64,000 nt of DNA from Azolla caroliniana. Lineage: Eukaryota > Plantae > Polypodiophyta. Position 1 is the first letter of the stretch. Each line of letters begins with the position of its first letter. A program made the translations under genes and the position numbers. A model generated the notes under the pieces. The model was not told the origin of the DNA and searched no databases. It saw only the letters and a list, made by a program, of their open reading frames with translations. The stretch is taken from contig JBHGNT010000010.1 in NCBI GenBank assembly GCA_043228905.1, positions 21,576,001-21,640,000 of the forward strand, read 5' to 3'. Shown here piece by piece: positions 571 through 60,808 of this stretch.

Positions 571-1036
571 TGTCAGGAATAGTACTAAACAGAGAGAGGA
601 TTAGTACTAAACAGAGAGAGAATTAGTACTAGAGAAGGGAAGTACTATTAGTACTAAGAGGATGGGACTGCATAAGACTCCCGAGAGAGGAAGAGAGAAG
701 AGTAGAGAGAGAGATAGCGAGGACGAGAGAGAGAGAGATGATGATAACAGATTATATATTATAAGAAGAGTAAGTACACAAGGGCTATGAGGCTAAAGAC
801 TAGCGTTGAACCAATTTGGTTCAACATAATGAACCTAATGCCCTCTTTTATAGTGTTCTCAGGAGTAATCCTGAAGCTTCTAGAATGTTCCAGAGAAATC
901 TGGAATATACATTAATTTCCTATAATAAAATGTAAACGAAAATAATATCTTATGTATTACAATAGATGATATAATGGTCAAGAGCTCGACCCATATAACC
1001 TAAGGTCATGGGTTCGAGTCTTGCCATATCATGACA
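571..1036 (-). repeat. 3' LTR of element A
   Basis: TGTCA...TGACA termini; near-identical to 5592-6035 except short tandem duplications. Confidence 0.95.
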
Positions 1037-1059
1037 CTATCCCCCCTTTAAAACGACGA

Positions 1060-4000
1060 GTGTCACGAGTCGTTTTGGATGAAGGACTCGGTTTGTGTGG
1101 ATATTGACGATGGAAGTCTTCAAGAAGCGCACAAGCATTAGTCACATTCTCAATCGGTTCCCAAGTACGGCATTGGTCACATTCTCAATCGGTTCCCAAG
1201 TACGTTCGCTGGGACTATAGCCTAGCCAATCGACTAGATAGTAGAGCTTGTTGCGAACAATCTTGGAATCAAGGATGGCGGCAACCTCGTACTCTGGTCC
1301 ATCTTCAAGCTCGATCGGGGGTGGAGGTTGTATAATACGTCCTGGGATGGTGCTCTCGTGATAGGGTTCGAGGAGAGAACTATGAAACACCGGATGTATC
1401 CGAAGTTGAGGAAGTAGATCGAGACAAAAAGTGACATCATTAATCTTTCCGATAATACGGAAAGGACCTAAGCGCTGATAATCCAATTTCTCACATGGGC
1501 GAGTAGTCTTGATGTGTCGTCGTAGCAGCCACACCCGATCTCCAATGTTAAAACTAGATGGAAGTCGATGATGATCCGCGTAGACCTTGTGTTTTTGTTG
1601 AGCTTGTTGGAGACGAGTAGATAAATCCGCTTGTATCTTACATAACGGCTCCAAATGATCCTCCGCGCAAGGATTTGTGGACACCTCTGGGGTTTGAAGT
1701 ACACTCCATCGAGGGTGACATCCCGTATAAGCATAAAATGGCGTAACTTTAGTCAATGTGTGGATAGAGTTATTATAGGCAAATTCGGCGAAGTGGAGAA
1801 TATCTGCCCAGTTATCCTGATGATAGTTGAGAAAGCACTGCAGATATTGCTCCAACGTTTGATTTGTTCGTTCAGCTTGGCCGTTGGTTTGTGGGTGGTA
1901 GCCGGAGGAGAGGTTACAAGTGACCTTGAGCATTTTAAAAAGGTGCTTCCAGAATTTTGACACGAACTGGGGTCCACGGTCGCTGACGATACTATCGAGA
2001 AGTTCATGATGCCGACATACTTCACGCATGACAATTTCGACGGTGTCTTCACTGGAGATTTCCTTAGTACATGGCAAGAAATGAGCCATCTTCGTATATC
2101 GATCTACCACTGTTAGAATCGCATTGAACCCCTCAAAGACTGGAAGATCTGTGATGAAGTCTAGAGCAATGGATTGCCACGGCTTGCTTGGAATTTGGTA
2201 ATGGTTCTAATAAACCATATGGATGATGCCTTGGCATTTTCGCTCTGCAGCATGTATCACAAGTCCGAACAAAATCTTCAACAAATTGTCGCATACGGGG
2301 CCACCAGAATGATTGTTGTATTAAATCTAATGTTTTAGTACTACCAAAATGCCCAACTGTATATGTGTTATGACAGTTTTGTACTGCTCGAAGGCGGCAA
2401 GAACCATTAGGAACATACAAAAGTTCTTTAAAGAAGAGTAATCCATCATGGTATTTGAATTGCCGATAGTCCGTACCTGGTGGTTGCGACTGTGAACACG
2501 ACGCTTGAGAGGGATCAATTTGTGCTAGTATAGCTTGGGCAAAAGCATCTGTCTTCAGGTCCGCACGTATGATATTGATAACGTGGGAATCCATGGGCAT
2601 GCCAAAAACCTGTGTTGCTTGCAGTCGTGCCGGTCCCAAGATTACTTGCTTTTGGTTATGGAAAGTTGGCTCGCTGGGACGCGGTGTTAGATAATGCATC
2701 TGCCTTCCCTTGGTGCTTCCCCGGACGATATGTAATTTTGAAGTCGAAACGTGTGAGGAAGTGGGCCCACCGAGCTTGATGTCGATTTAACACACGAGCA
2801 TCCTGAAAGTAGGCAAGGTTTTTATGGTCACTGAATACGGTCACAGAATGCTCCCCAATGCGAAATCCGATGCGTCAGCTTCGATAATGAATGGTTTTTT
2901 CGGATCGACATGCGCTAGAATTGGAGCCAATGTAAATGCCTTCTTAAGACTCTCGAAAGCCATATCTGCTTCTTCAGACCAAACGAATGATTGTCCCTTC
3001 CTGGTAAGCTATGTGAAAGGCAGAACGAGCTTTGAGTAATCTTGTATAAACTTCCGGTAAAAATTGGCAAAGCCTAAAAAGCGTTGCACATCCTGCACCG
3101 AGCGCGGAGTCTGCCATTCTACCACTGTCTTGACCTTAGCTGGGTCCATGGAGATGCCTTCTGATGAAATGACGTAGCCGAGAAATTCCACCTGGTTGCA
3201 CCCGAAATAACATTTTTCTAGCTTTGCGTAAAGACCATGTTCTCGAAGTCATTTTAGTACTAACAGTACATGAGAATCATGCTCTTCTTCGGTCGTTGAA
3301 TAAACCAGTAGATCATCCAAGTAGATGATCAGACACACATCCAAGAGATCTCGGAATATATCATTTGCCATGTGCTGGAAGACTGCTGGTGCATTAGTGA
3401 GGCCGAACAACATGACCGTATACTCGAAGTGCCCATATCTAGTGCGGAACGTGGTCTTCCATTCATCTCCTGGTCGGATCTGTACGAGGTTATAGGCCCC
3501 ATGTAAGTGCATACTCATTGCGGATTGTAACTTTATTCAAGCCATGGTAATCTACGACTAGACGAAGTGAGCCATCCTTTTTCTTGACGAAGAAAATGGG
3601 TGCGCCGGTTGGAGATTTCGAATGTCGAATGAATCCATTCTCCAAATTCTCCTCTATATAGGCTCGAAGGACTTCTAGCTCGGTTGGTGACAAATTGTAG
3701 ATCGGTCCCCATGGTGGCTCTTTCCCTAGTTGTAAATCGATGGGGCAATCATATGGTCGATGGTGAGGAAGTGTATTGGCTCGTACTTTATCGAATACAT
3801 TGGCATAATGATTATACTTCTTTGGAAGCTGAACAGTGGACTCCTCTTTAATGGTGTCGGAGGGTTTTAGTGATATTGCGAAGAGAAACATTTCTTCCTT
3901 GCGTCCTTCTTCCCGCAATTGATGTAGTGAAATGGTGGCAATCGTCTAAGTAGATCCTCAGGTTTGTCGACACCGGATTTCTCTTGTTCTCCAATCTATG

Positions 4001-5517: not shown

Positions 5518-5591
5518 GGGATGAAAAGAAAAGAGGAATAAGAGATTAGTATGAAGGGAGAGAGACAGAAGTGAGGAAAATTGGTTCAAAC

Positions 5592-6035
5592 TGTCAGGAA
5601 TAGTACTAAATAGAGAGAGAATTAGTACTAGAGAAGGGAAGTACTATTAGTACTAAGAGGACGGGACTGCGTAAGACTCCCGAGAGAGGAAGAGAGAAGA
5701 GTAGAGAGAGAGATAGCGAGGACGAGAGAGAGAGAGAGATGATGATAACATATTATATATTATAAGAAGAGTAAGTACAAAAGGGCTATGAGGCTAAAGA
5801 CTGGCGTTGAACCAATTTGGTTCAACATAATGCCTAGTGCCCTCTTTTATAGTGTTCTCAGGAGTAATCCTGAAGCTTCTAGAATGTTCTAGAGAAATCT
5901 GGAATATACATTAATTTCCTATAATAAAATATAAATGAAAATAATATCTTTCGTATTACAATAGATGATATAATGGTCAAGAGCTCGACCCATATAACCT
6001 AAGGTCATGGGTTCGAGTCTTGCCATATAATGATA
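5592..6035 (-). repeat. 5' LTR of element A
   Basis: Direct repeat of 571-1036; minus-strand TATAAAA at 5845-5851. Confidence 0.95.
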
Positions 6036-6341
6036 GGTAATATCTCTTTTATTATGTCTATCGTTGTCATCCTTAAACATCCAACTTTTGTTAGTGTAAA
6101 ATCATACACAATGATATCCACCTCACTAATGTCAATGATAACTGCATTCCAAAGGTTTAATGCATCACCACGTCCAAAACTTTACCAATGCAGAATTGGT
6201 GCCCTAGGTCATGGTCATCTACATGTGTAGCTATTAATATCCCCTGTCATCTACATGTCTTGCAAGTTTCCTTGTCACCTGAGTTATGCTCGTGTTGTCA
6301 TCCTTAGTTCCACATAAATGTTTCTCTATTGTAGATGAACC
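6036..6341 (-). pseudogene. Sola1-like transposase remnant, copy 2, right part (internally deleted)
   Basis: Continues the homology to ~31082-31512 (VDIIVYDFTLTK.G.L; cacataaatgt.tct) directly after the TSD. Confidence 0.75.
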
Positions 6342-34856: not shown

Positions 34857-36184
34857 ACCTAGTTGTATAGACACTTCTTTTTTAAATATGTTTTTCAATC
34901 ACTATAACTCGATACAAGGTATCAAGTTCCTTTCAAGAGGTTTCTATTATCATGAGGAACTTGATACGGCGTAATCGTGAAGATCTGTTACTACGCGCGG
35001 ATCATGAGGTGGAACTGCCGGGGTTCTGGACCAAAAGGATTTGAAGTTTGCACAACCTTTAGCGAGAAAGTATTTAAGATAATTTGAGAGAGAGAGATTG
35101 AGATTAAACGCTTGACTTTAGATTGAGAAAGATTGATATGGCGAAAAGAGAGATTAAGATTGAGCAATTGACTTTAGATTTAAAAAACAAGTTACACGAT
35201 CAATTCGATAACGAATTTTCTTCTCTTAATTTCATATAATAAAAAAGTACCTAACCCTTCTTCTTTTTCCATCTCCTCTATTATAGATGCCCTCATGCAT
35301 TTGAGGGTACAAGACATGCATAAAATGCATGTTTGCGATTTGGCACTCATGTATTACATGTGGTGCATGATAATCATGTCACTCATTTTAGCTCTCATGT
35401 TTGAGAATTTACATATAAAGTTACAATGATAGAAATATAATTTCAAGAAAATGTGTTGGCTTAGTAATAAGCTTATAGACTCTCAACTTGGAGGTGCAAG
35501 GTTCAAATCCACACGTGCACTCCTTGTGTATATATATATGTGTATTATATTTATTTAATTATATATCTATCCGGTCGCCGGATGTCGGATGTCGTCGGTT
35601 CGCCGGATTCGATTTGATTACCGACCGGTTCCGATTTGATTGCCGACCGATTCTGGTTCCGGTTTGCTCTCCGACCGGTCGCGGATTGCTTACAGGCCGG
35701 TCCCAGTTTGCTTACTGGCCGGTTCCAGTTTGCTCTCCGACTCGGTTCCGGTTTACTTTCCGACTAGTTCCAGTTTACTTTCCGACCGGTTCCATTTTTT
35801 TGCTAGTTGGTTTTTGGGAATTTGGCCACATTCATCCATCTAGACAAAGTGGCCAAAAGTGCTCTTAGCACAAATGAAGAATAAGGGATCTCAATGTGCT
35901 TATATAGCCAAGGCCTTAACTTTCCTATCTATGTGGGATATTTCACAGTTTTATTTTTTTCTCTTTTTCTTTTGCAAAACTTCATACCCACATAAGTTGA
36001 CACTTAGATGTCTGTTTCTTATGTAGTAAAGTGCATCTGAAAACTCTTCAAGACCTCCATCTTTTTGTAGTTTTATGTGATTTTCACACCATTGCTGAAA
36101 ATCTTCACGACATCCACCCCCACCAAACCGCACGTCCTCTGGTATGTGCCAAGAAGAGAGAGTGTGAGATTTCGACTATGGTGA

Positions 36185-41691: not shown

Positions 41692-41766
41692 AATGTGTTG
41701 GCTTAGTGGTAAGCCTATAGACTCTCACCTTGGAGGTGCAAGGTTCAAATCCACACGTGCACTCCT
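41692..41766 (+). other. tRNA-derived (Glu-CTC-like) Pol III A/B-box module inside the LTR; second copy at ~35451-35524
   Basis: A box TGGCTTAGTGG with D-stem GGCT/AGCC, loop CTCTCAC, B box GGTTCAAATCC at 41742-41752; acceptor stem does not pair. Confidence 0.7.
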
Positions 41767-42529: not shown

Positions 42530-43941
42530 AAAATATTAGGTACTAGATCATGGAAAGAATCAACTGCAAATGTCTTTTGGAGATGAAATGGAATTTCTCA
42601 CAACATCTCAAACAATTTTGGAAATGGTTGTGGGGTATAAAAATGAGTAGAAAATTTGTTTGTTTCCATTGGTTGTTGGTTCATAAAGTTATACCAGTTA
42701 ATGGGTGGCAAAAAGGGAATGTAAACAAGATGTGCCCTTTGTGTACAAATCTAGTGGAGACTACTAAGCATTGTTTGTGGAGTTGTGGTTTTGTTATGGA
42801 CATATGGAAACGAATCATAACATTATTGATACCAGTATATCCTCGAGCAATGTATACATGGGGAGCGGTATTATGGGTGGCGGTACAAGATAAACTTATT
42901 GTCATAGACACGCCAACCATGAACTACGACAGAGCATGGATGACGAGGCTACAACCAATAAGTGGAACCGGAAGTAACAAGGCTAGGAACTCTAGAAGTT
43001 GTGAGCAAGACTATGAACATAGGAATCTAAGGTTAACTAAAGAGCATGAAGACAAATATGAAGATCAAGGAGACAATATGGCATGAAATGAGAATACTAA
43101 ATTAATGTGTCAACGACTAGTGTTGAATCCCTTGAAATGGACCAAGGAGGTTACAAGTATTTATACAAGTTCTAAGATTGAATATCTCTAGAATATACCA
43201 TATAATATTTCTAGAATATACTAACAAGAATATAATATGCTAAATTATACAATATTAAACTATATTCATGTTCACAAGAGTTTTCATATGGTCTAACACA
43301 ACACTATGTACTAGGTGTGTTATAGGTTGGAGGTTCGAGTCTAGAATGTGACATTATCTCCCCTCTTACGCAACCTTCCCAAACAGGTCACTAGGTTATG
43401 GGGATATCAGTGATGAAAATCATGGACCACCTTCGGGAAATTTTGTAAATTCTTCGCTAATTCCCATCTGGCGTCAGACAGGGGGTAACCCTTCCACAAG
43501 ATGAGGTATTCGAAGGTGTGGAAATAGGAACACAAACACAAATGGGCGTGAGCGACCATGTGTGGTCTTCACTGGGAACATAAATACTATGGTACATGAA
43601 CAAGAGGAGGTTGCAGATGCTACTGTGATAAGACATGGTTTGGTGGGAAAAAAATTGACAATACCTTTGAATCCAAAAATAGAGACTGATAAATCTCAAA
43701 TATGGCAATTGGTAAGTAGTATTACAATTTGGTATATTTGGAAGGCTTGATGTCTAAAGGTATTTCAAAATGTGACTAAAAGACTTACCCAAATAATTTT
43801 TGGGATTTGGACAACGATTGTGCATAGTCTCATAGGTTTGTTGGATAGTATAAAAGGTAATATGCAACCAGCGGAGCTTAAACGATTGAAGTTCCATGCC
43901 ATCTAGGACATAAGTATATATTTATAGACTGTGTTGAGCGG
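42530..43941 (+). pseudogene. LINE (L1-clade) ORF2 3' fragment, split by the insertion at 42900-43585
   Basis: zf-RVT-type motif FWKWLW...CPLC...ETTKHCLWSC and downstream IWYIWKA. Confidence 0.8.
42900..43585 (-). mobile_element. 3' fragment of a second chromovirus family (LTR 42900-43353, PPT, chromodomain)
   Basis: TGTCATA...TGTGACA; PPT complement TTATCTCCCCTCTT; minus strand encodes EYLILWKGYPLSDARWE. Confidence 0.82.
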
Positions 43942-58264: not shown

Positions 58265-60808
58265 TCCCGGCTTTCGCCCCCGAGGGTCTCGCAGTTCCTC
58301 TCATGGTTCGATCTCACCGTCAGGAACTGGACCGAGTGACGCCCATCCTGGCTCTTGACCCTTGCATAGGTCGAGCCGTTGTCCAGCACCTTGGTCTCCA
58401 TCCGTGCTGCCGTGATGTACAGTTCTCCTAGTATAACCGGATGTAAGGACATCTCCTGCACGAAGAAGTGTTGGTCAATCTCGACATCGTCGATCTTTAC
58501 TCGTACGTTCGGGCAGGCTCCATGCAGTTCTTCGGTGGCACGCGTCGCCGCCCGTATTTTCCACCCGTGCTTGGTATTGATCGGCCATTTTCCCTTCTTA
58601 TAGAAGTCCATGGACATCAAATTGATTTCTGAACCATGGTCCACCAACGCCACCACCGGTTCATGAACATCTCCGATCTTCACGGGGGTCTCCGTGGTCG
58701 CTCTGGCCCAGTGCGGCCTCGAATAGTGGCTCTCCGCCAACTCGTCTTCCAGCGCCATGTCCTCTATGTGCGTCGTCCGCACCTCCACCGGCTTCTCCGG
58801 TTCTGTCTCCGTCAACAGCCTCTTCCTCTTCACCAAGTCTACGATGGAGTCGTGGAACTCCTTGGCGATCCCGAGCACTTCCCTCAGCGATAGCTCCACC
58901 TTGCTGTCGAGGATTCGTTCTTCCAGGACCTTTCGCAGGTCCGTGGATCTTTCGATTTCTGTGCCCAGCTGGTACCCGCCCTTCTTGGGATTATCCTGGG
59001 CACCGGTTACAACGGTCTCATTCCGTCTTTGCCCGAATCGAGTTTCATATTGCTGCGAGGGCCCGGCCCCTCCGGTTTTCCCTACCCGCTTGTCCTCTAC
59101 TAGAGCCTCGTAGTTTTGACAAGCGGCTTCGACGAAGCCCGTCTTTTCTTCCACCGAGTCACTCCACCCGGTTACCTCCCAGACCCGTTTTTCCGCGCGG
59201 TCCACCTCTTCTTTCCTCAGCCGTGCACCGGCGTGGCCTTCCAGCATCGTCGGCCAGAACCCGGCTTTGTTCGTCTTCGGGGCCTCGCCACCTCTGACCC
59301 GAATACCAGCTGACACCGAGTAGTGGACAGTCTCCGCGTGACGAGCCGCCGCCTCCTCCATCAGCCTTTTCATACCCCCTCGCCCGACGTTCAGGTTCAG
59401 GGCCCTTTGGGTCTCGCTGGCGTGCACCTGACCGTTCCACAGGTACACCACGTTGCTTCTCATCGCCTCGGCGAAGTCCCCGCAGTCCTTTCGGATGTGC
59501 CCAACCGCGTCACACCACATGCACTTGTTTTCTGCCAGAGGTCGTCGGTCACGGGCCTATTCGCCACCATCCCTCCGTGCCTGGGCGATCTGGAGATCCT
59601 TTACCATCCACGTCAGCTCCTCCAAAGCTGCTCCCCCGGACGAGCCATTGATCATGCCGGTTGAAGGCAACCCAGTCTCGAGCCAATTTCGGGTCTCTTC
59701 CCTTCGCATTGGTGGTGTTGGCTCGAGTTTCCTTGCTATGACAGAGCCCGCCCCTATCGATCCTTTGTCAACCCATTCCCGCCGTTTGTCGAAACAGCCA
59801 CAGACCCTTTTTACCACGGCCCAGTCGGCCGTCAGCCCGTCATCAGTCTCCAATAGGAGGCCTACCTGCTCCCAATCCCGCTCGTCAACCGACTTAACAA
59901 ACAATAGGACACGACTTGTATCCAGAACAGTCCGGTCAAGCACCGAGAGGCACGTGAAGCGTTCCTCAAACTCCCGAAGGAGCACTGACGCGTTCCTTCC
60001 TTTGTCGGGGGTCTCCACCCACTCCATGAAGTCCCGCTTCGAAAGTCGAAGCGCATCTTCAAGCCCGTATCTTTCGAGGAGCCGACCTTCGAACTCCTCC
60101 CAGGTCCAGCTCTCGGCCCGTACCTCGAGCACCTCCGTATGGATACCCGGCATCGCCACTCGAGGGAATCTGGTAGAAGCCTCTCTTCCGGAATGTCCCT
60201 CATTACCATCTCAGCCCGGTAGGACGCCAAGTAGCTCGTGGCATCCTTTTGTCAGGAATAGTACTAAAGCAGAGATGGAATTAGTACTAAGAAGAGTAGT
60301 ACTATTAGTACTAAGAGGACGGGATTGCGTAAGATTCCCGAGAGAGAGGAAGTGAGAAGAGGAGAGAGAGAGAAATAGGATGATGACAGCAGCTCTTATA
60401 TTATATGAAAGATAAGTACAAATCGACTAAGAGGCTTAAGACTGGTGTTGAACCAATTTGGTTCAAAACAATGCCTTGTGCCTCCTTTTATAGTGTTTTT
60501 AGGAATAATCCTGAAGCTTCTAGAATGTTCCAGAGAGATCTGGAATATACATCAATTTTCTATGATAAAGTATAAATGAAAATAATATCCTACAAAATAC
60601 AATTCATAGTCTAATGGTAAGAGCTCGACCCATGTAGCATAAAGTCATGGGTTCGAGTCTTGCCATATCATGACACTTTTCCACTAAACCGGCCGATCGT
60701 ACCGACAACCGCCTCGATAGCCCTATCAAGGGCGCCAGTGCCTTCGCGCACACTCACTATACGGTCTACAGCCGAAGCCATGGCTTCTGCAAGGTCCGAT
60801 CCCCTCAT
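58255..60808 (-). pseudogene. gag: gag-protease of element D, interrupted by a solo LTR
   Basis: ORFs 59557-60159 and 58255-59520 (zinc knuckle and ALVDHGSE in one frame, ending REDF*). Confidence 0.92.
60250..60675 (-). mobile_element. Solo LTR related to the element A family
   Basis: TGTCAGGAATAGTACT...CATGACA homologous to 571-1036; 5-bp TSD CCTTT/CTTTT (one C>T), whose removal restores the gag frame. Confidence 0.92.

What the first reader, a model, noticed from the sequence alone, without database searches (positions are those of the whole stretch)
962..1036. Antisense tRNA-like Pol III promoter at the very edge of U3 in chromovirus LTRs
Seen: the last ~70 nt (+ strand) of both element A LTRs (962-1036, 5961-6035) and of the diverged solo LTR (60606-60675) read like a tRNA gene. 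The solo copy has A box TAGTCTAATGG and B box GGTTCGAGTC, ending about 16 nt from the terminus. A different chromovirus LTR also has GGTTCGAGTC 12 nt from the same terminus (43332-43341), with TGGTCTAA upstream. The B box is unchanged while neighbouring bases diverge. All face antisense to the element. Established: Cassandra TRIMs carry 5S Pol III units in their LTRs, and TFIIIC-bound B boxes act as chromatin barriers. Inference: these LTRs carry their own TFIIIC site, either as an insulator or to make antisense RNA over the PPT/integrase end from the 3' LTR.
Basis: partly seen in the sequence, partly recalled or inferred. Interest (0 to 1): 0.72.

Follow-up and report, generated by a model that had tools for sequence, protein, structure and literature searches.

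The report
Backward tRNA promoter in chromovirus LTRs
Several protein-coding plant jumping genes carry, at the outer tip of their end repeats, a backward-facing stretch with the two promoter boxes of a tRNA gene at tRNA spacing, which likely binds the factor TFIIIC and would help keep the element's own promoter open, although neither binding nor an RNA has been shown.

Summary
The sequence signal is real. A tRNA profile gives only 5 hits in the 64-kb window. All lie in LTR U3 regions and face antisense, against 0 hits at 7 bits or more in 20 shuffles. Element A is a self-priming, Tcn1-type chromovirus. A box, AGGTC-like loop and B box sit at tRNA spacing (43-46 nt) at the U3 tip of family A, of element B (A box broken) and of two related families found elsewhere, while the middles are unrelated. 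Five other rows of the same clade lack the unit. Within that family the whole stem and LTR tip are conserved, not just the B box, and element A's own A box is damaged. It is not a tRNA. Best reading: a captured tRNA/SINE promoter kept as a TFIIIC site beside the heat-shock and TATA promoter. Function is untested. The closest known case is Helenus (non-autonomous; tRNA part sense in the copies seen).

The parts
571..1036 (-). Element A 3' LTR (U3 tip at 1036)
   Evidence: TSD GGTAA at 566-570 and 6036-6040
5592..6035 (-). Element A 5' LTR, 95.9% identical to the 3' LTR
967..977 (+). A box of element A (TGATATAATGG; A at tRNA position 10); same at 5966-5976
1003..1020 (+). AGGTC variable-loop motif plus B box GGTTCGAGTC (1011-1020); 44 nt from the A-box T to G52; same at 6002-6019
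966..1032 (.). Long hairpin pairing the B-box arm with the D/anticodon part; 19-pair core 974-1027, extended to the LTR tip in element A
873..890 (.). Heat-shock-element-like GAAnnTTCnnGAAnnTTC array in U3; also 5872-5889 and 60513-60530
   Evidence: 6 of 7 window matches lie in these LTRs; null mean 0.76; the name HSE is recalled
845..852 (-). Pol II TATA box (TATAAAAG), 115-120 nt inside the A box
5578..5589 (-). Self-priming site after the 5' LTR; 12-nt complement of LTR 5807-5818, which lies 33 nt below the TATA box; no tRNA PBS
   Evidence: rule from PMC6317226
1039..1049 (-). Polypurine tract next to the 3' LTR
1073..1076 (+). First TTTT downstream of the unit; a Pol III RNA from the 3' LTR would end here (about 115-120 nt)
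   Evidence: the transcript itself is inferred
1142..2206 (-). Integrase core, SH3 and chromodomain of element A
60250..60675 (-). Solo LTR of family A (81% identical); A box 60607-60617, B box 60650-60659, hairpin 60614-60666
42900..43353 (-). Element B 3' LTR; partial A box 43289-43296, AGGTT plus B box 43324-43341; no hairpin; chromodomain remnant at 43440-43508
41699..41751 (+). Comparable antisense A/B-box unit in mid-U3 of non-chromovirus element C (5' LTR); second copy 35457-35509

Best explanation
The U3 tip of these self-priming chromovirus LTRs holds an antisense, likely tRNA- or SINE-derived A-box/B-box unit that is likely kept as a binding site for TFIIIC, which would hold open chromatin just outside the element's heat-shock-element and TATA promoter. 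Shown: the boxes, their tRNA spacing, the strand asymmetry, recurrence in four families with unrelated middles, absence in sister families, loss of the tRNA fold, and the hairpin in family A. Inferred: (1) capture from a tRNA gene or SINE; (2) TFIIIC binding, probably only on new unmethylated copies, because the B box holds a CpG; (3) a benefit as a barrier or nucleosome-free patch for an element whose chromodomain is thought to aim it at silent chromatin; (4) the backward orientation spares the element cut-short sense transcripts. The B box matters more than the A box. The family-A hairpin is a later addition that now constrains both arms.
For: Profile hits fall only in U3 and only antisense, 5 of 5 in the window, null 0. 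3 of 104 called LTR starts (178 loci) have an antisense hit within 35 nt of the tip, against 0.04 expected, and all three sit in element A's 9-row clade. Spacing is 43-46 nt in all 7 units measured; 181 of 187 real tRNAs have 42-46. Middles are 23-58% identical between families. The B-box word is the longest shared by A and B. In four runs, A-box variation falls mostly on tolerated positions: position 9 A/G, position 11 T/C and position 12 free; T8, ATGG at 60614-60617 and 7 of 15 left-arm sites show no row at 2%. The 50 nt upstream are 80-86% AT in 5 of 5 units, as for land-plant Pol III genes (PMC13578239). The A box lies about 115-180 nt from the Pol II TATA, divergent, in A, B, C, L007 and L018.
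Against: No binding or RNA data. Five of 9 clade rows (L001, L002, L004, L005, L037) and, by eye, SM-Tcn1 lack the unit, so it is dispensable. G10 is replaced by A in element A, and contigs with that A make up about 33%, 55% and 1% of depth in three runs. A boxes of B and L018 and the B boxes of L010 and L018 depart from consensus. Within family A the hairpin and the integrase attachment end explain B-box conservation without TFIIIC (stems 43/44, P 0.002). B-box variation across the population could not be read, because one search lists no differences within about 30 nt of the stretch ends. CpG methylation is reported to exclude TFIIIC (PMC11346459). Only two independent lineages carry it, and the profile came from phage and bacterial tRNAs.
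Confidence: 0.4

Rival explanations
1. The unit is a working Pol III gene for a short antisense hairpin RNA (about 115-120 nt from the 3' LTR) that would act as a small-RNA precursor, a silencing decoy or a brake on the element, like the Pol III hairpin cassettes in foamy-virus U3.
For: The hairpin is far stronger than tRNAs give by nature (-23.9 and -29.2 kcal/mol; 0 of 197 tRNAs as low). It folds better on the antisense strand in the solo LTR and L010. A TTTT follows the B box by 52 nt in A and 54 nt in L010. The predicted RNA folds as two hairpins, z -4.7. Precedent: PMC7693620 (passages).
Against: A box damaged in A and B. No hairpin in B, C, L007 or L018. The second hairpin lies in integrase coding sequence and is not formed in L010. 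0 of 19 pairs change on both sides among 4 sequences. Distance to the first TTTT varies from 17 to 284 nt among the 9 copies checked.
Confidence: 0.2
2. The unit is a neutral relic of a SINE or tRNA insertion that hitchhikes at the LTR end; the hairpin arose by template-switch correction of an imperfect inverted repeat.
For: It is absent from 5 of 9 clade rows. Similar units occur elsewhere and in sense orientation (two in L337). Kojima notes that 'not a few' LTRs hold tRNA-like parts. The G10-to-A change improves pairing with the LTR end at the cost of the A box.
Against: Boxes and spacing survive while middles fall to near-random identity, across integrases only 52-57% identical. Same position and strand in two lineages, and similar distance to TATA in an unrelated element.
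Confidence: 0.2
3. The working part is the hairpin itself, in the genomic RNA or single-stranded cDNA just after the PPT, where it would aid plus-strand priming, packaging or end processing; the tRNA likeness is only its history.
For: Both arms are conserved in family A while loop sites vary up to 48%. It folds on the sense strand too (z -4.8 and -4.0).
Against: It is limited to family A; it cannot explain box retention in B, L007 and L018; there is no covariation.
Confidence: 0.12
4. The sense RNA is complementary to the T and D loops of a host tRNA and anneals it, like the U3 half of Ty3's two-part primer site.
For: It explains the antisense orientation and the U3 position directly; Ty3 precedent in PMC5371799 (passages).
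Against: Element A is self-priming, with no tRNA PBS. In family A the anti-T-loop is locked in a hairpin. T-stem and middle differ in every family, so no single tRNA is matched.
Confidence: 0.08

Closest known systems
Helenus / TRIMp3 (Kojima 2024, PMC10886601; text parts 1-5 of 6 read, supplement passages seen)
   Same: tRNA-derived sequence in LTRs, conserved only around boxes A and B, no working tRNA; Pol III use inferred, not shown.
   Different: Helenus are short non-coding TRIMs. In the LTRs seen (Helenus-1_SMo and neighbours) the tRNA part is sense and mid-LTR, and it is thought to drive the genomic RNA. Here the host is a 5.5-kb gag-pol chromovirus with its own TATA promoter, and the unit is antisense at the U3 tip. 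The paper says an autonomous partner must use Pol II.
Cassandra TRIMs (as described in PMC10886601; original paper not read)
   Same: Pol III promoter inside a plant LTR.
   Different: 5S-type promoter, non-autonomous, transcription shown; here tRNA-type boxes, coding element, nothing shown.
Tcn1 chromoviruses (PMC6317226 passages and supplement 5; PMC2864245 passages and supplement S3)
   Same: Chromodomain, self-priming, 5-bp TSD, size about 5.5 kb.
   Different: No tRNA-like U3 unit in the passages seen; the SM-Tcn1 LTR has tandem repeats there (by eye).
Foamy-virus Pol III miRNA cassettes in U3 (PMC7693620, passages)
   Same: A coding retroelement with a hairpin-forming Pol III unit in U3.
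   Different: Animal retroviruses with expression and function shown; here antisense, tRNA-derived, hairpin in one family only, no RNA shown.
ETC sites / tDNA insulators (PMC11346459, passages; the fission-yeast barrier work is recalled)
   Same: B-box-centred TFIIIC binding with a weak or missing A box.
   Different: Host chromosomal sites, not carried on a mobile element.
Ty3 bipartite primer site (PMC5371799, passages); HIV-1 U3 tRNA-like motif (recalled, no call)
   Same: tRNA-complementary sequence in U3.
   Different: Those elements are tRNA-primed; element A self-primes.

Membership tests
Tcn1 chromovirus (element A) | Gypsy order with integrase plus chromodomain | tested here: met
Tcn1 chromovirus (element A) | Self-priming site instead of a tRNA PBS | tested here: met
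   12-nt complement between 5578-5589 and LTR 5807-5818
Tcn1 chromovirus (element A) | 5-bp TSD | tested here: met
   GGTAA/GGTAA
Tcn1 chromovirus (element A) | Chromodomain aromatic cage | tested here: met
   Y, W and Y seen by eye; cage positions are recalled
Tcn1 chromovirus (element A) | Placement with named Tcn1 references in a tree | not tested
   the tree holds no named reference; the REXdb files were too large to read
tRNA gene | Cloverleaf; passes ARAGORN or Rfam tRNA | tested here: not met
Type 2 Pol III promoter | B box consensus | tested here: met
   exact in A (both LTRs), solo, B and C; one departure each in L010 and L018
Type 2 Pol III promoter | A box consensus | tested here: inconclusive
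   met in solo, L010 and C 5' LTR; G10 lost in A and L018; GG lost in B and C 3' LTR
Type 2 Pol III promoter | A-B spacing as in tRNA genes | tested here: met
   43-46 nt
Type 2 Pol III promoter | TFIIIC or Pol III occupancy; transcript | not testable with these tools
   only contigs were available
Helenus / TRIMp3 | Short non-coding TRIM | tested here: not met
   5465 bp with gag-pol remnants
Helenus / TRIMp3 | tRNA unit oriented to transcribe the element | tested here: not met
   antisense, against sense in Helenus-1_SMo
SINE insertion | Own TSD, body and tail | tested here: inconclusive
   none seen by eye in A or B; a TA-rich tail follows the unit in C
Pol III pri-miRNA cassette | Stable hairpin in the predicted RNA | tested here: met
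   family A only
Pol III pri-miRNA cassette | Processed small RNAs | not testable with these tools
   no raw small-RNA reads were offered

The most novel reading that the evidence does not exclude
A clade of self-priming plant chromoviruses carries its own divergent Pol III unit at the LTR edge. It works as a portable TFIIIC insulator for a heterochromatin-seeking element, and in family A it also makes a heat-responsive antisense hairpin RNA, a plant retrotransposon counterpart of the foamy-virus U3 Pol III cassette.
Probability: 0.2. Interest if true: 0.8.

Novelty: new variant of a known kind. Interest (0 to 1): 0.52.

Why it matters
Chromoviruses are thought to insert into silent chromatin yet must stay transcribable. 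A built-in TFIIIC site would be a simple, testable answer and would extend LTR-borne Pol III promoters from non-coding TRIMs to coding elements. At high copy number such LTRs would also scatter potential TFIIIC sites and false tRNA calls over the genome. If it is only a relic, it is an annotation caveat.

Tried and rejected
ARAGORN: 0 genes in the window and 0 in 60 of the first 80 loci. Rfam: no tRNA hit at E up to 5 for the whole window or up to 10 for the two local stretches, so 'working tRNA' is rejected. blastn against phages: one chance hit. No own genome is held. A single-protein scan of viral contigs found nothing. RNA run X20 has no cover at 944-1167; these are contigs from one small run and prove nothing. 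One search shows no variant in the B box, but it lists none within about 30 nt of either end, so I did not count that as conservation. Depth peaks near the B box were not used, since the tool warns that depth is no copy number. The z-scores are invalid because unscored shuffles were set to -99; only the shuffle counts were used. A plain inverted duplication giving a chance A box was weighed down: the sense strand scores about -2 bits against 14-18 for the antisense strand. The two-hairpin fold of the predicted RNA is not kept in L010. The landing-pad idea from earlier notes finds no insertion upstream of any of the 6 window copies (small n). The careful tree did not finish; the quick tree was used.

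Full report
Element anatomy. Element A lies on the minus strand from 6035 to 571, with a GGTAA target-site duplication and LTRs 95.9% identical. It holds gag, RT/RNase H, integrase and chromodomain remnants and a PPT next to the 3' LTR. There is no tRNA primer site: 12 bases after the 5' LTR are complementary to LTR bases 33 nt below the TATA box. That is the self-priming rule that Neumann et al. give for Tcn1 (83% of 1500 elements). I call it Tcn1-type; no named reference was placed in a tree. The host is likely a non-seed land plant (inference from the lineage distribution). The solo LTR (60250-60675) is 81% identical. Element B (LTR 42900-43353) keeps only a chromodomain remnant in view.

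Is the signal real? The coordinates are right. The stretch is not a tRNA by ARAGORN or Rfam, and the B-box count alone is marginal. I built a sequence-only profile from 217 of 502 distinct phage and bacterial tRNAs, at most 12 per isotype. In the window it gives 5 hits at 5 bits or more: three family-A LTRs and two LTRs of an unrelated element C, all in U3 and antisense. Twenty block-shuffled windows give 0.7 hits each at 5 bits and none at 7. Element B is not among these hits, but its tip scores 7.2 bits, reached by 0 of 200 shuffles. The opposite strands score about -2, so the likeness is not a by-product of symmetry.

Related elements. Three scans gave 178 loci, and an LTR start was called by a PPT rule in 104. 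Of 12 hits at 7 bits or more in 1.01 Mb, three lie antisense within 35 nt of the tip: L010 (family A), L007 and L018. About 0.04 are expected (P 0.0007 for two). A quick tree of 37 rows (A plus the 36 loci with an LTR start, at least 41% identity and at least 115 aa) puts all four carriers in one 9-row clade (support 93), as two lineages. L001 and L002/L004/L005/L037 lack the unit; 2 changes, 4 of 500 shuffles as low. One gain with losses and two gains both remain open. SM-Tcn1 lacks it by eye. A, B, C, L007, L010, L018 and the solo LTR all show A box, AGGTC-like loop and B box at 43-46 nt, within the real tRNA range, while middles between families are 23-58% identical. A distant element, L337, has two sense units deeper in its LTR, so such modules are not confined to this clade or strand.

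The hairpin. In family A the unit folds into a long stem on either strand (z -5.4/-4.8 in A, -6.2/-4.0 in the solo LTR, 0 of 200 shuffles; weaker in L010, z -2.0/-0.5). Real tRNAs do not pair these segments so well (0 of 197). B, C, L007 and L018 have no such fold. Between A and the solo LTR the stems match at 43 of 44 bases against about 82% in the rest of U3 (P 0.002), while the B box alone (10/10) has P 0.14. No pair changes on both sides among 4 sequences.

Population variation. Contigs from four runs laid on the solo LTR could report differences only at about 60605-60644, so the B box was not tested. In that range tolerated A-box sites vary up to 50-98%, loop sites up to 48%, left-stem sites at most 10.4%, and the end pair at 60634 up to 25%. 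G10 is replaced by A in 0-23% of depth there, and in about 33%, 55% and 1% of depth in three runs laid on element A (top 40 of 188 rows shown). That change extends the hairpin and damages the A box, and the subfamily amplified anyway. Depth shares are rough.

Mechanism. U3 reads inward from the tip: B box, A box, AT-rich stretch, heat-shock-like array, TATA. A- and B-boxes bind TFIIIC, and an AT-rich upstream region binds TFIIIB (PMC13578239, section 20). TFIIIC also sits at ETC sites without Pol III and is reported to be excluded by CpG methylation (PMC11346459 passages). Because B boxes are better kept than A boxes, I favour a TFIIIC site acting on new copies to keep the Pol II promoter open (0.4). 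The rivals are an antisense Pol III hairpin RNA (0.2), a neutral relic (0.2), a hairpin role in reverse transcription (0.12) and tRNA annealing (0.08). tRNA or SINE descent itself I put at about 0.85. All functional steps are inferred.

Literature. Nine searches showed no description of an antisense tRNA-type unit in coding plant chromovirus LTRs; the library lacks most subscription papers. Kojima 2024 (parts 1-5 of 6 and supplement passages) describes Helenus and says that 'not a few' Repbase LTRs hold tRNA-like parts, studying only the TRIMs; so the kind is known. Seen as passages only: PMC3601003, PMC10730233, PMC13192763, 10.64898/2026.03.01.708851, PMC5371799 and PMC7693620. REXdb files 1 and 3 and the Novikova .doc files could not be read and may bear on how widespread the unit is. 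Unreviewed earlier notes report a similar unit in gut-fungus chromovirus LTRs; they are a lead, not support.

Verdict. A real, recurring feature and a new variant of a known kind; function untested; interest 0.52.

Noticed in passing
window 41699-41751 and 35457-35509: Non-chromovirus element C carries its own antisense A/B-box unit in mid-U3, about 170 nt from its TATA, followed by a TA-rich tail; it is the best-scoring unit in the window (20 bits). Its PBS starts TGGTGAACCC, likely tRNA-Trp type as in Phygy (identity recalled).
   Followed up: partly
window 873-890, 5872-5889, 60513-60530; L007 4270-4339: Heat-shock-element-like arrays in U3 of family A and L007 suggest heat-responsive LTRs.
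   Followed up: partly
L337 4870-4890 and 4999-5059: A distant gypsy element (33% integrase identity) has two sense tRNA-like A/B units in its LTR.
   Followed up: no
window 805-826, 5806-5827, 60446-60466: The self-primer sits in a 21-nt near-perfect palindrome at the predicted start of R; L001, L007 and L018 have a different palindrome in the same place.
   Followed up: partly
SM-Tcn1 record, PMC2864245 supplement S3: By eye, the bases after its 5' LTR are complementary to a stretch inside the LTR, so it looks self-priming although that paper reported no evidence for it.
   Followed up: no
window 1029-1056; P0002, P0003, P0007, P0008: In close relatives the pol frame appears to run through the PPT and stop inside the first bases of the 3' LTR, which would add a coding constraint on the LTR tip; element A's frame shifts earlier, near 1170.
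   Followed up: partly
window 1050-1076: An 8-bp stem ending in TTTT lies in the integrase tail, on the antisense strand; it is not formed in L010.
   Followed up: yes
L344-L422: Many prokaryote genome bins in the genome collection hold contigs with eukaryotic chromovirus integrases, likely contamination.
   Followed up: no
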